Below, piece by piece: positions 23,196-36,033 of a DNA stretch of 64,000 nt. The position numbers were made by a program, and so were the translations under genes. Source of the DNA: Leucoraja erinacea (Eukaryota). Below the pieces are notes generated by a model. That model was given only the letters and a program-made list of their open reading frames with translations. It ran no database searches and was not told the origin of the DNA. The stretch's first letter is position 1. Each line of letters opens with the position of its first letter. Location of the stretch: assembly GCF_028641065.1 (NCBI RefSeq), contig NC_073398.1:28706001-28770000 (forward strand), given 5' to 3'.

Positions 23196-24942
23196 TCGGG
23201 CCCACGTCCCGCTCTCCCCTCACAACACAAACAGGCGCCGCAATCCACCAATCAACGTACCCCTCCTCAGCCCTGAGCCCAATCGCTGACCGCCTTATTT
23301 TGAGGTGGGCGCGTTCAGGAACGGCCAATCGAGCTACAAGCTGGATCGACTTCGCCCTTAAAGGGGCAGCGCCGGCAGGAGACGCAATCGACCGCCGATG
23401 GCATCGCCCTGCCCTTGCCAGTCGCCTTTTCGGCGACCTGCTGCAACTATGACAGTCGCCGGCAGTCGCCTAGTGGGACAGGCCCTTTAAGTTCGCCGGC
23501 GTCTGCGGGCGGGGACAACCCACGGAACCAAGCACTGGCCTGAAGAAGAGACCCGGCACGAAACATCACCTATCCATAAGATACTCAGTGGGACAGACAG
23601 CATCTCTGGAGCAAAATGAACAGGTGACGTTTCGGGTCCTGGCCCTTCTTTGGACTGAGAGTCAGGAGAGAGGGGAACGAGAGGGCAAGGTGCGAAAACG
23701 ACAAATCAAAGCAGTGGGTCTGGGTTAAAACGTGGGCACTGGCCTGAAGAAGAGTCGCCTGAAGAAGAGACCCGGCACTAAACATCACCCATCCATGTTC
23801 CTCAGAGATACTGCCCGGTCTGCTGAGTTACTCCAGCAATGTCTTTTCTGTAAGGCAGAATCTGCATTTCCTTGTTTCTACAAGCACAGGAGTTTGTCAT
23901 TGAAACTGATCTAAAGTGCACTTAAGTTACTCAGACTAATGTGCAGATGGAATAGCTATTTGGATAAATGGTATCTTCCACAGGTGCTGGCTGACCTGCT
24001 AAGTTACTCCAGGACATTGTGTTCTCCTTGAGTAAACTGGCCTTTATTGATAAGAGGGATAATGCAGGAAAATGTTGTGGGTGATCGGTCGTGATTTTAT
24101 TGAATAGGCACGAAGGTCCGAATGGTGTATTCATGCTCCTGTTTCTTGTGTTTACATTCGTTCTTATCCTTCAATTGTGAAGAGCGTCTCTTTATCATAT
24201 GAATGAAATGATTTTTGGTGCATCTTTACAAGCACTAGTATGAATTTAATTGGACTAGTTCATATGACAAATAAACACTTTTGACGCTTGAAGGGTAAAG
24301 TACAAAACTAAACATTAGTACATAAGAAATAGAAGCAAGAATGGGCATTTGAGACCCCAGTGTCTGCATGGCCATTGATTAAAATGACAGCTTATCACCC
24401 AAAATACAATTTTCCTACGTTATCTCCTTGTCTCCTGATATCCAATTTGTATGCGATTAATGATTGAGACTCTGCAGGGATCAGAAACAGAGAATTCAAA
24501 ATCAATATAGGAAGTCAAACCCTGGATCTATTGTTACTTCAACCAATTAAACCACACAGGTGGTAGAGTTATAGACTATATTGAGTCTTGGTGAAGGCAC
24601 ACCTGGAGGATTGTGTGCAAACTTGGTTCACTTGCCTAAAACGTTTCATCTAATATAATTTAACTATGACAAGAGTTCAGTAAGGTTACACCAGACTGGT
24701 TCTTAAGATGTCAAGCTGGTCACATATGTATTTTGTTAAAATAATATAAATTACATACAAATTATGACAGAAAAATAACATCACAAACCAACTGTTTTTG
24801 CAAATGTAATGTTTCTAACTTGCTGTTTTTTTAAAATATTCTTTCTTCATTTATTCTCCTAATATTATTAAATGGAAGGTACACAAAATTGCTGGAGAAA
24901 CTCAGCGGGTGCAGCAGCATCTATGGAGCGAAGGAAATAGGC

Positions 24943-32983: not shown

Positions 32984-33812
32984 GTGAGTTTGACAGGTTG
33001 ACTTTGCCCTCACACTCCACTCCTGTCTCTCTGCCGGGGTATAATTCTGTGGGCAGCATTAGGTTGCTTTCACCTTAGATTTCCTTCAGTCAGAGGTTTT
33101 GACAATACTTAATGGGATTTTTCTTATCCGCATTGAGGTAATTAAAATAGATGAAATTCTCTAGTAACAGGAAGCTGAAATTGACTCCATACATCGAATC
33201 AAAACAGCTTGGGAGAATTCTCCACACTTGGCAGTGGGTGAATAATAAGTTGGAGATAAAACCTGTACTAAAGCAAAACTTTCCTTTGAGCTGTGACAAG
33301 TTTTTTTTTTCATTGAGATTTTCCGAGTCAAGGATTTAAAGGGATTGAGAAAGGATATGAAAGAGCTGATCCGAGTTCCCACAGTTCTAAAGATGGCCAA
33401 CAAAGAACAGGTTAGTGCTGGAAAATATGCAGTGGGTTTTCATTTTCATGCAGAGAACAGAAAGATGACAATCTGTAGTGCAATGAAGGACAGCTTTCTC
33501 TTTTAGTGGTGGGGCAGTGTGCTGATGTCGTTCACGAAGGTCTGGTCACCAGATGGGTGAAGTTCCTGCTGAACCATAGCTTACTGACAGACTGGCTCCT
33601 TGCATTTCTTTGTAATAGATCACTGTCTACTGGTCTTTCATATTCCTATGTTACTAAGTTGATCAGTTGAAAACCGATTGGTGTGCTGGCCTTGAATCAA
33701 ACAATGGTTATGAATCCAATATTCCTGGGAATTATTATCAGATTTATTTCTTTGGAATTCAATGGTACAGTTCAGTACATGCATCACTAACCACCGCTCT
33801 GCTCTCAAACAG

Positions 33813-33970
33813 ACCATCAAGGAAGAAACCATCAGCCTCCTGTTGCAGTTGGTAGAAGACGAATTAAAGTCTGACACTAAAGATGACAGTCCTGTGCTCA
33901 AGAGCAGTGGTGATCTGCTCCCTGCCCATGTTTCGGCCTGTGTCCTTGCTCTGTCCGGCTGGACTGCTGG
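33813..33970 (+). CDS. ZC3HC1: ZC3HC1 coding exon 6 (TIKEETISLLLQLVEDEL...HVSACVLALSGWTA)
   Basis: ORF 33762..33974; CAG acceptor, GTAAG donor. Confidence 0.93.
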
Positions 33971-34629
33971 GTAAGAATCCAAAATAAATTAGTAGTTTCT
34001 AGTTGCTTTCATGGACCTGTGCCTGCTTGGAATCATTGGCTAAATCTTGAAACATTTCACCAGTGCCTCCTTTATCCCTCACCATTCCTATGGTTTAATC
34101 ACCCAAGTTATTCATGACAGTTCAATGCTACTCCTTCCCTATCTCCACAAAATGAAGGCTGATGGTACGATGCAATTCCACAGACAATGGCCAACTTTGT
34201 TTATTTAAAACATTTGGCCATTCCTTAGCAAGGGTAAAGAGTAACAGCTATTGTTTCAAGGAATGTAGAATGTGCAAAAGCCAAAATGCGCAGGGTAAAT
34301 TTCCACCAAAAGAAATATGCAAATGGGATAAAGGGATGAGTATTGTCCTGGGGTGCTTTCCAAAGTACAATTTGAAATAATGCCATGGGACCTTTACATC
34401 TACATATGAAGGAGAGATGGAATTAACCTCTACTTGGCATCTGAACTGATAGAAGGCATTATCAAGTAAGCATTATTGAGTCATGGAGCTATGCAATGCA
34501 GAAATGCTGGACTGTGTGCCCCACTGGATAGTGTAACTTCCAACTAAGTCACTGAGGAGGTTGAGGGGCTTGTGGTGTGGGAATTTGCATCAATATCTAA
34601 GTGGGATTTTCACCATCATATTTATCTGC

Positions 34630-34818
34630 GTAGGAAAGAACTGCAGATGCTGGTAGATTGAGGTAGACACAAAATGCTGGAGTAACTCAGCATGTAATCA
34701 TCCTGCGGGAAGACGTGGCAGAGGGAGAAAGGTCTGAAGAAGGGTCTCGACCCGTAACATCACCCATTCCTTCTCTCCGGAGATGCTGCCTGTCCCGCTG
34801 AGTTACTCCAGCATTTTG
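34630..34818. mobile_element. Fold-back Penelope tail insertion carrying a captured exon fragment
   Basis: Inverted tail halves; TSD CATCA(T/C)ATTTAT; central 37 nt is the reverse complement of part of ZC3HC1 exon 7. Confidence 0.85.
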
Positions 34819-34862
34819 CATCACATTTATATAACTCTCTACTTTATTTCCAACGTGACTAG

Positions 34863-35106
34863 AACTGCCTCGGATTTCCATCATCTGCCGGTCATCACCT
34901 GCTCGTATTGCATGAGGAAGGTGGGCCTGTGGAGCTTTCAGCAGATTGACACCGTTTGCTCAGCTAGTGATCCTGACGGTTCCGTGTATGGTACCTCGCC
35001 ACAGGAGAACAGATCAGAAACATCAATGCCAACTCCCTCTGCCATGTCTCCCCGTAGGATGATTACACGAAGCCAGGACGCTGCCCAGATACAGACTGGT
35101 GAACAG
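34863..35106 (+). CDS. ZC3HC1: ZC3HC1 coding exon 7 (VITCSYCMRKVGLWSFQQI...SPRRMITRSQD)
   Basis: ORF 34783..35142; TAG acceptor, GTAC donor; 244 nt. Confidence 0.93.
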
Positions 35107-35185
35107 GTACCACTAACTCTCTGGTCTATTCCTATCGTATAACATCCTCCCTTTCTAAAAACCGTGATTTTTTTTTGTTCATCAG

Positions 35186-35392
35186 CACGAAATCACCCCT
35201 ATGCCTATTGGGGCTCGGACACGGAGTCGAGATGCCCACAGTCCCACTCTGGTCGATCGCAGTGAACCAGAAAACATCAGTCCGCTCCAGCGGACCAAGC
35301 GGCCTGTGACTCGAAGCATGGGCCAGGGTGATGTCCCTTCCAGCCCACAGAGGAAGCCAAAGCGTCTGCGTCTGTCTTCATCTACCAGCTCC
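35186..35392 (+). CDS. ZC3HC1: ZC3HC1 coding exon 8 (RTRS...RPVTRSMG...VPSSPQRKPKRLRLSSSTSS; NLS/phospho-region)
   Basis: ORF 35201..35458; CAG acceptor after a 79-bp intron; GTAAGT donor. Confidence 0.93.
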
Positions 35393-36033
35393 GTAAGTAG
35401 CAGTGCATTTGGGTGGATCGCTAGGGAGAACTGTGCTACCAAACTGTTACACTGGTAGATCCATAGCACTGGAACTACATATCTGAGTTTGTTAGCTCAT
35501 TGTCACCTCCAGTTCTGAAGCTCTTCAATGCCTGTTCTCTCCACTCCACTGTTGATAGTCATGTCTTCAGTTACCTGGCTCTAAAATGTCATCCTTATTC
35601 TAGAATCTGAAACATGCCCTCCGACCTAACTTAACCATACCCCATCTACAGTGGTCCCACCTGCCCGCCTTTGCCCATATCTCTCTAAACCTTTCCTATC
35701 CTTTCTCTCTATCTTTCTCTTCTCCTTCAAGAAGATACTTAAAACTTATCTCTTCAGCCCATTTTTTTTGTTGTTGTCACCTGTCATTGCCAAACCTTGA
35801 GCAAAATACAAATTGCTGGAGGAACTCAGCAGGCCAGGCAGCATCTGTGGAGAAAATGGAAAGGCAATGTTTTAAATTGGGAACCTTCTTCAGTTTTTAG
35901 ATCCGCTGAGTTCTTCCAGCACGTGGTGTTGTGCTCAAGTTCCCAGCATCTGTAGTCCCTCGTGTCTCCATTGCCAAATCTTGTTTGATTCAATGCTGAA
36001 TTGGTTACAAGGTTTTGAATATTTGTGGAAAAG

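What the first reader, a model, noticed from the sequence alone, without database searches (positions are those of the whole stretch)
34691..35069. Inverted 37-nt copy of ZC3HC1 exon 7 captured inside a retroelement in the upstream intron
Seen: 34691-34727 (CATGTAATCATCCTGCGGGAAGACGTGGCAGAGGGAG) is the reverse complement of exon 7 bases 35033-35069 (PSAMSPRRMIT) at 33/37 positions. It sits at the junction between two inverted Penelope tail halves bounded by a 12-bp TSD. In pre-mRNA the pairing would have two G-U wobbles and two A-C mismatches and would loop out the exon 7 acceptor. Inference: a template jump onto nearby target DNA or the nascent transcript during insertion. The result resembles an ADAR editing-complementary sequence or splicing-modulating stem over a Ser-Pro-containing coding region.
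Basis: partly seen in the sequence, partly recalled or inferred. Interest (0 to 1): 0.72.

Follow-up and report, generated by a model that had tools for sequence, protein, structure and literature searches.

The report
Exon snippet patched into Penelope insertion
A dead jumping-gene insertion in an intron of a skate-like fish's ZC3HC1 gene carries a reversed 37-base copy of the next exon, most likely a repair patch copied from nearby DNA when the insertion was sealed; it is predicted to pair with the exon in RNA, but the thin RNA data show no editing or mis-splicing.

Summary
Bases 34691-34727 are the reverse complement of exon 7 bases 35033-35069 at 33 of 37 positions, all four differences are transitions, and the motif occurs at only these two places in the 2.19-Gb genome. 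It lies where two head-to-head Penelope-like tail pieces meet, inside a 12-bp target duplication (11/12), with about 2-nt microhomologies. Best reading: a locally templated filler made while a two-ended insertion was being joined, as known for L1. It is sporadic: 1 of 60 spacers among 216 head-to-head pairs in 1.86 Mb, and that one is the index case. Landing in an exon is unremarkable (35% by chance within 500 nt). The stem is predicted stable (-66 kcal/mol). However, its A-C mismatches put the adenosines in the intron, it is decaying without compensation, and low-depth RNA shows normal exon 6-7-8 joins and no A>G. Brain-type or deep editing data were not available. The scan has noted such locally copied fillers before, in this genome and others. 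Mostly an ordinary scar; the editing idea stays open at low odds.

The parts
34614..34625 (+). Left target-site duplication (12 bp)
   Evidence: 11/12 identical to 34819-34830
34626..34691 (-). Left arm: inverted copy of the 3' end of the Penelope-like tail, cut short 66 nt in
   Evidence: BLAST to real copies; other copies continue GGG in 116 of 191 and AGG in 40 of 191
34691..34727 (-). Filler: inverted copy of exon 7 bases 35033-35069 (33/37, 4 transitions); first 1-2 nt shared with the left arm
34728..34818 (+). Right arm: 6-nt linker plus sense tail piece beginning at a minimal hammerhead-like core (34734-34761; the GAAA motif reads GTAA in this copy)
   Evidence: nearest sampled copies 96-98% identical; no Rfam match at E<=10 to any hammerhead family
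34819..34830 (+). Right target-site duplication, ending 32 nt before the exon 7 acceptor
34863..35106 (+). ZC3HC1 exon 7 (244 nt, not a multiple of 3)
   Evidence: tblastn with orthologues; RNA joins
35033..35069 (+). Donor segment in exon 7 (codons for P-S-A-M-S-P-R-R-M-I-T), 202 nt beyond the right TSD; A35056 in a UAG context would recode Arg to Gly if edited
33813..33970 (+). ZC3HC1 exon 6 (upstream exon)
   Evidence: its 3' end is the loose end before exon 7 in RNA contigs
35186..35392 (+). ZC3HC1 exon 8, after the 79-nt intron 7

Best explanation
The 37-mer is an inverted copy of exon 7 lying at the join of two head-to-head Penelope-like tail pieces inside one target duplication, most likely a filler copied from nearby DNA while the insertion was being sealed, and likely neutral today. 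Inferred steps: (1) The element's endonuclease makes a staggered 12-nt break and both 3' ends are extended on the tail RNA, giving the two arms. (2) The exon-side cDNA end lets go at the ribozyme and folds back on its own strand, exposed by about 240 nt of resection, primes on about 2 nt, and copies about 35 nt of exon 7 (snap-back synthesis by a repair polymerase or the RT). (3) It then anneals to the short left arm on a 2-nt CG and the gaps are filled without loss of flank. (4) Since then the copy and the exon have drifted apart by four transitions. A predicted intron-exon stem is a by-product.
For: Shown: unique two-place motif; position exactly at the arm junction within an 11/12 TSD; left junction C shared, and the next base is G in both the donor and most repeat copies (GGG 116 of 191), so a decayed CG overlap fits; right-junction AG overlap is possible because many best genome hits start at query 125-128. 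Head-to-head pairs are the norm for this repeat (140 against 21 tail-to-tail), and PLE protein nicks and extends both strands in vitro (PMC11167929). All 4 differences are transitions. Two alter codons conserved in orthologues (Pro in 18 of 19, Arg of TRS in 19 of 19), so they arose in the filler and are uncompensated, about 5%, near the right arm's 2-4% distance from its nearest copies. L1 templated insertions (22 cases, bioRxiv 10.1101/2024.08.27.596794) and hairpin-primed SD-MMEJ (PMC7407515) are precedents.
Against: One event cannot tell a DNA from an RNA template or co- from post-insertion repair. The L1 templates typically lie within 15 bp of the site, against about 200 bp here. The microhomologies are only about 2 nt, and one is inferred through a CpG change. 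No second local case was found among 59 other spacers. Two other unique spacers had no source anywhere in the genome. Neutrality is inferred: the filler's sequence in the other three organisms was not displayed, and RNA depth was low.
Confidence: 0.6

Rival explanations
1. RT jump onto ZC3HC1 RNA: the intron-side 3' end, after 66 nt of tail RNA, switched onto the nascent or mature ZC3HC1 transcript at 35069 and copied about 35 nt before joining the other arm.
For: The filler on the + strand is antisense to the exon, as a cDNA of the host transcript would be, and the donor lies wholly in an exon. L1 switches between RNAs (PMC11702581). Several other spacers are pieces of other repeats (copy counts).
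Against: The same orientation follows from DNA snap-back. A 37-nt donor falls wholly in an exon for 35% of positions within 500 nt. No splice junction is crossed.
Confidence: 0.2
2. Later repair: a perfect fold-back insertion formed first, broke at its centre, and end-joining replaced the inner 65 nt or so of the left arm with a locally copied patch.
For: Near-perfect fold-backs are common (136 of 216 pairs have gaps of 5 nt or less). The left arm stops where the 22-bp perfect inverted repeat ends. Templated insertions are a general end-joining scar.
Against: Asymmetric truncation of one arm is common without any filler. Filler and arm divergences are of similar order, which suggests similar age but is a coarse measure.
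Confidence: 0.12
3. Exapted RNA stem (independent of how it arose): the filler pairs with exon 7 in pre-mRNA and drives A-to-I recoding or tunes splicing of exon 7 or intron 7.
For: Predicted duplex -66.4 kcal/mol, mean pair probability 0.79-0.89 in three contexts; region z -3.0. A35056 is in a UAG context and would change Arg to Gly at +3 of S-P-R-R (ADAR neighbour preference and the CDK motif are recalled). The insertion is shared by several organisms. Intron 7 retention is seen in 2 of 4 RNA-type runs.
Against: No A>G row at depth about 5 (X22; a row needs 3 reads) or in contigs of depth 15.9 and 17.1; canonical exon 6-7 join in both contig sets; no skip end before exon 8. The A-C mismatch adenosines are intronic. 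Mismatches are uncompensated. The 22-bp arm hairpin (-38 kcal/mol) is complete 250 nt earlier in transcription and would enclose the filler (kinetics inferred). Retention of a 79-nt intron with a weak donor needs no special cause.
Confidence: 0.07
4. Assembly artefact or part of the repeat family.
For: The filler's own contig was not displayed; no long reads were available.
Against: Four transitions against the exon, the TSD, two places only in the genome, and no second copy in 1.86 Mb. An artefact would be an exact copy.
Confidence: 0.01

Closest known systems
Inverted-pLTR (head-to-head) insertions of endonuclease-positive Penelope-like elements (PMC8557442, PMC3846280; passages read)
   Same: Head-to-head 5'-truncated pieces, one TSD around the whole insert, hammerhead-like motif in the tail; capture of unrelated host DNA between pLTRs is reported in the rotifer Adineta vaga
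   Different: Only about 190 bp with no ORF; the captured piece is traced to a donor 202 nt away in inverted orientation, which the passages read do not describe
L1 templated insertions and twin priming with switching (bioRxiv 10.1101/2024.08.27.596794, passages; PMC11702581, passages; PMC2912911, passages)
   Same: Non-element genomic template under 250 bp copied into a retrotransposon during integration; microhomology at the inversion junction
   Different: L1 templates typically lie within 15 bp of the site; in L1 twin priming the second primer is internal, whereas here both arms come from the same 3' tail; this is a germline, fixed event in a PLE
SD-MMEJ / polymerase-theta templated insertions (PMC7407515, passages)
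   Same: Hairpin priming on 1-4 bp, short synthesis, release and joining by microhomology, leaving an inverted repeat
   Different: Donor is about 200 nt from the break and the primer end is probably retro-element cDNA; the enzyme is not identified
Intronic editing-complementary sequences such as those of AMPA receptor Q/R and R/G sites (recalled; PMC3553965 seen only as a search listing)
   Same: Intron-exon duplex over coding sequence, long enough in principle for ADAR
   Different: Lies in the upstream intron; no editing seen; no conservation or covariation shown; mismatched adenosines are on the intron side

Membership tests
Penelope-like element (EN+) insertion | Head-to-head inverted 5'-truncated copy within one TSD | tested here: met
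Penelope-like element (EN+) insertion | Minimal hammerhead motif in the pLTR | tested here: inconclusive
   CTGA-x-GA, stem, GAAA-type layout seen by eye across copies; this copy reads GTAA; Rfam gave no hammerhead match
Penelope-like element (EN+) insertion | Link of this tail to an RT plus GIY-YIG ORF | not tested
   No full-length copy was fetched; the assignment rests on anatomy, the papers read and earlier scan notes
Locally templated insertion at a retro-element junction | Unique nearby donor, above chance | tested here: met
   (score 55 against shuffle maximum 26)
Locally templated insertion at a retro-element junction | Short microhomology at both junctions | tested here: inconclusive
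   1 nt seen and 2 nt inferred on the left; 0-2 nt on the right depending on where the arm starts
Locally templated insertion at a retro-element junction | Made during integration rather than later | not testable with these tools
   Needs alleles or species with the insertion but no filler
ADAR editing-complementary sequence | Stable duplex with the exon | tested here: met
   Prediction only: -66.4 kcal/mol, P 0.79-0.89
ADAR editing-complementary sequence | A-to-G in RNA relative to DNA | tested here: inconclusive
   None seen, but depth about 5 in raw reads and 16-17 in contigs, tissues unknown
ADAR editing-complementary sequence | Conservation or compensatory change across species | tested here: inconclusive
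   Four uncompensated mismatches in this genome; filler alleles of relatives not displayed
Splicing-modulating intron-exon stem | Exon skipping or upstream intron retention | tested here: inconclusive
   Canonical joins, no skip end, no depth at 34824-34844; a skip would frameshift and may be degraded

The most novel reading that the evidence does not exclude
One retrotransposon integration event built an editing-complementary sequence from scratch by copying its own host exon. The 37-bp duplex lets ADAR edit A35056 (UAG), turning the conserved S-P-R-R of ZC3HC1 into S-P-R-G and removing the +3 basic residue of a CDK-type site in skates only. Penelope junction patching would then be a general source of new intron-exon duplexes in sharks and rays.
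Probability: 0.07. Interest if true: 0.75.

Novelty: new variant of a known kind. Interest (0 to 1): 0.3.

Why it matters
The later steps of Penelope integration are stated to be unvalidated (PMC11167929). A clean case with TSD, two arms, a traceable donor and microhomologies records that both ends are extended and that one end can copy DNA about 200 nt away before joining. I found no paper describing this for PLEs in three searches, though it is known for L1 and the scan has other examples. If editing or a splicing effect were shown, it would be a rare worked example of how an editing-complementary sequence is born; current evidence gives that low odds.

Tried and rejected
Part of the repeat consensus: rejected (2 places). 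A systematic capture pathway in this genome: not found. Of 60 spacers of 12 nt or more, four scored well above their controls; three of these were multi-copy repeats (61-106 hits in the sample) and were set aside, leaving only the index. 39 of the sampled 10-kb loci were picked by similarity to the index, so the sample is not fully random, and only 19 of the 60 have a TSD. Probing 45 nt beside arm 5' ends gave 8 of 396 inverted matches at score 40 or more, against 24 of 1469 random controls, with 2 of the 8 being the index. Solo arms: TSD found for only 19 of 155, and none of the 6 with fillers of 10 nt or more had a clear local source. The apparent direct local copy at 23714-23755 proved to be an internal repeat of the element's own head and was dropped. 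Two other unique spacers matched only themselves genome-wide. Rfam gave 4 weak unrelated matches. No listed holder was on record as RNA. X23 gave 3 reads only, and X22 did not cover the exon 7 acceptor. The DNA lay was swamped by repeat contigs, so filler alleles in relatives and any empty site were not visible (no joint across the element was among the rows shown). Mapping the skate S-P serine to human phosphosites S338/S344 (PMC6721280, passages) was not done. Searches for an ECS arising by inverted duplication and for editing in sharks or skates gave nothing on point (listings only). A targeted genome-wide search for copies of the same build was not obtained, so frequency rests on the sample.

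Full report
Observation. Bases 34691-34727 match the reverse complement of 35033-35069 at 33 of 37 positions. The four non-Watson-Crick pairs are two A-C (34692/35068, 34710/35050) and two G-U (34705/35055, 34715/35045), all transitions. The match scores 55 against a maximum of 26 in 500 shuffles. A pattern covering both versions finds 2 places in the 2.19-Gb genome and 0 for the reversed control, so it is not repeat sequence.

Host gene. The exon encodes part of ZC3HC1/NIPA. The best of 19 hits is Amblyraja radiata at 96%, so the genome is skate-like. Orthologue mapping gives ten core exons plus an alternative segment at 33318-33413. Exon 7 is 34863-35106, 244 nt, so skipping it would shift the frame.

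Anatomy. A 12-bp TSD (34614-34625, 34819-34830; 11/12) encloses a left arm (34626-34691, inverted 3' tail), the filler, a 6-nt linker and a right arm that starts at a minimal hammerhead-like core and ends at 34818. The core's GAAA reads GTAA here, and Rfam did not recognise it. Head-to-head pairs outnumber tail-to-tail ones 140 to 21 in 1.26 Mb, as described for PLEs (PMC8557442 and PMC3846280, passages). I did not fetch a full-length element, so the PLE assignment rests on anatomy, those papers and earlier scan notes. At the left junction C34691 is shared; the next base is G in the donor and in most repeat copies (GGG in 116 of 191), so a 2-nt CG overlap later changed to CA is inferred. On the right, an AG overlap is possible but depends on where the arm begins.

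Mechanism. Shown: position, uniqueness, orientation, TSD. Known: a PLE protein nicks and extends both target strands in vitro, and later steps are unvalidated (PMC11167929, parts 1-2 of 4 read). L1 insertions can include copied genomic templates under 250 bp, typically within 15 bp of the site (22 cases; bioRxiv 10.1101/2024.08.27.596794, passages). SD-MMEJ primes on 1-4 bp hairpins (PMC7407515, passages). Inferred: both ends were extended on tail RNA; the exon-side end folded back on its own resected strand, copied about 35 nt starting 202 nt beyond the TSD, and joined the short left arm. The orientation fits a jump of the other end onto ZC3HC1 RNA equally well; the exonic donor does not decide it, since 35% of positions within 500 nt would give a wholly exonic 37-mer. 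I give 0.6 to DNA snap-back at integration, 0.2 to an RNA jump and 0.12 to later repair.

How general. In 1.86 Mb (the window, eight contiguous blocks and 39 loci chosen by similarity) there were 1065 arms and 216 head-to-head pairs, 93 with a TSD. Sixty had spacers of 12 nt or more. Four scored well above controls: three multi-copy repeats and the index, which is the only one with a single-copy local donor. So 0 of 59 unselected spacers qualified. Arm 5' ends showed no excess of nearby inverted matches (8 of 396 against 24 of 1469). Two other unique spacers had no source in the genome. Earlier scan notes report local fillers in this genome (e1-9580626) and others (e1-9003955, e1-9194910, e1-9395072). 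I did not check them, but they suggest a recurrent minor outcome rather than a one-off.

Age and selection. DNA contigs of organisms A, B and D run from intron 6 into the left arm (to 34651-34653), C stops at 34617, and all four begin the right flank inside the right arm (34794-34796), so the insertion is shared. D differs from the window at 20 of 902 bases on the left flank. No difference in 35033-35069 was among the 40 rows shown (13 not shown), and the filler contig was not displayed. Two mismatches would alter residues kept in orthologues (Pro in 18 of 19, the Arg of TRS in 19 of 19) and so arose in the filler. The ACG in the filler matches Thr in 6 of 19 orthologues and may be the older state. 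None is compensated. This fits neutral decay but is not a formal test.

Function. The intron-exon duplex is predicted at -66.4 kcal/mol with mean pair probability 0.79-0.89, out-competing the 22-bp arm hairpin (-38.0) at equilibrium; the acceptor region stays about 70% unpaired in the 305-nt loop. The arm hairpin would form first during transcription (inference). The mismatched adenosines are intronic. Of six exonic adenosines, A35056 (UAG, Arg to Gly at +3 of S-P-R-R) is the best candidate by recalled ADAR preference. RNA over 34824-35450: X22 (organism D, polyA, 22 reads, depth about 5 over the donor segment) showed no A>G row. X23 gave 3 reads. Contig sets X12 and X18 (RNA by guess; depth 15.9 and 17.1) had 0 other letters in exon 7, joined exon 6 to the canonical acceptor and exon 7 to exon 8, and showed no skip end. 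This argues only against high-level editing or gross mis-splicing in unknown tissues. Intron 7 was retained in X12 (depth 8 against 22) and X22 (5 reads against 3 junction reads); it is 79 nt with a weak donor, and a link to the stem is untested. Human NIPA has phosphosites at S338 and S344 (PMC6721280, passages), which I did not map to the skate serine.

Novelty and verdict. Three searches showed no paper on traced local fillers in PLE fold-backs; host-DNA capture between pLTRs is reported without a local donor. Searches on ECS origin and on chondrichthyan editing gave nothing on point (listings only). bioRxiv 10.64898/2026.07.22.740005 (passages) did not bear on it. Verdict: a real, well-preserved templated junction patch, a variant of a known kind, probably neutral. 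Interest 0.3. The born-ECS reading has probability about 0.07 and would merit 0.75.

Noticed in passing
window 35107-35185: The 79-nt intron 7 is retained in 2 of 4 RNA-type runs (X12 depth 8 against 22 spliced; X22 5 reads against 3 junction reads); it has a weak donor and an in-frame stop.
   Followed up: partly
window 33318-33413: An alternative segment of about 31 aa between exons 5 and 6 matches the 526-aa Amblyraja NIPA isoform X1 but not three other orthologues mapped.
   Followed up: no
L001:5043-5060 (G000:C21, about 37385940): A TSD-flanked solo copy has two telomere-type repeat units at its 5' junction; 1 of 926 arm ends, and the only such 12-mer in 1.86 Mb.
   Followed up: partly
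L022:8366-8433 and L155:9443-9470: Unique 68-nt (CpG-rich) and 28-nt spacers between head-to-head arms have no source elsewhere in the assembly.
   Followed up: partly
window 23532-23550 and 23736-23754: An exact 19-nt repeat of the element's own ribozyme head inside a longer fold-back: self-copying rather than flank capture.
   Followed up: yes
P0004, P0014: Annotated NIPA isoforms of two sharks skip exon 8, so alternative splicing near this region exists outside this lineage.
   Followed up: no
window 34670-34691 / 34797-34818 and 35796-35939: The two arms form a perfect 22-bp inverted repeat, and a second fold-back copy lies in intron 8, 400 nt after exon 8; further intron-intron duplexes around exons 7-8 are possible (88 nt at 75%).
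   Followed up: no
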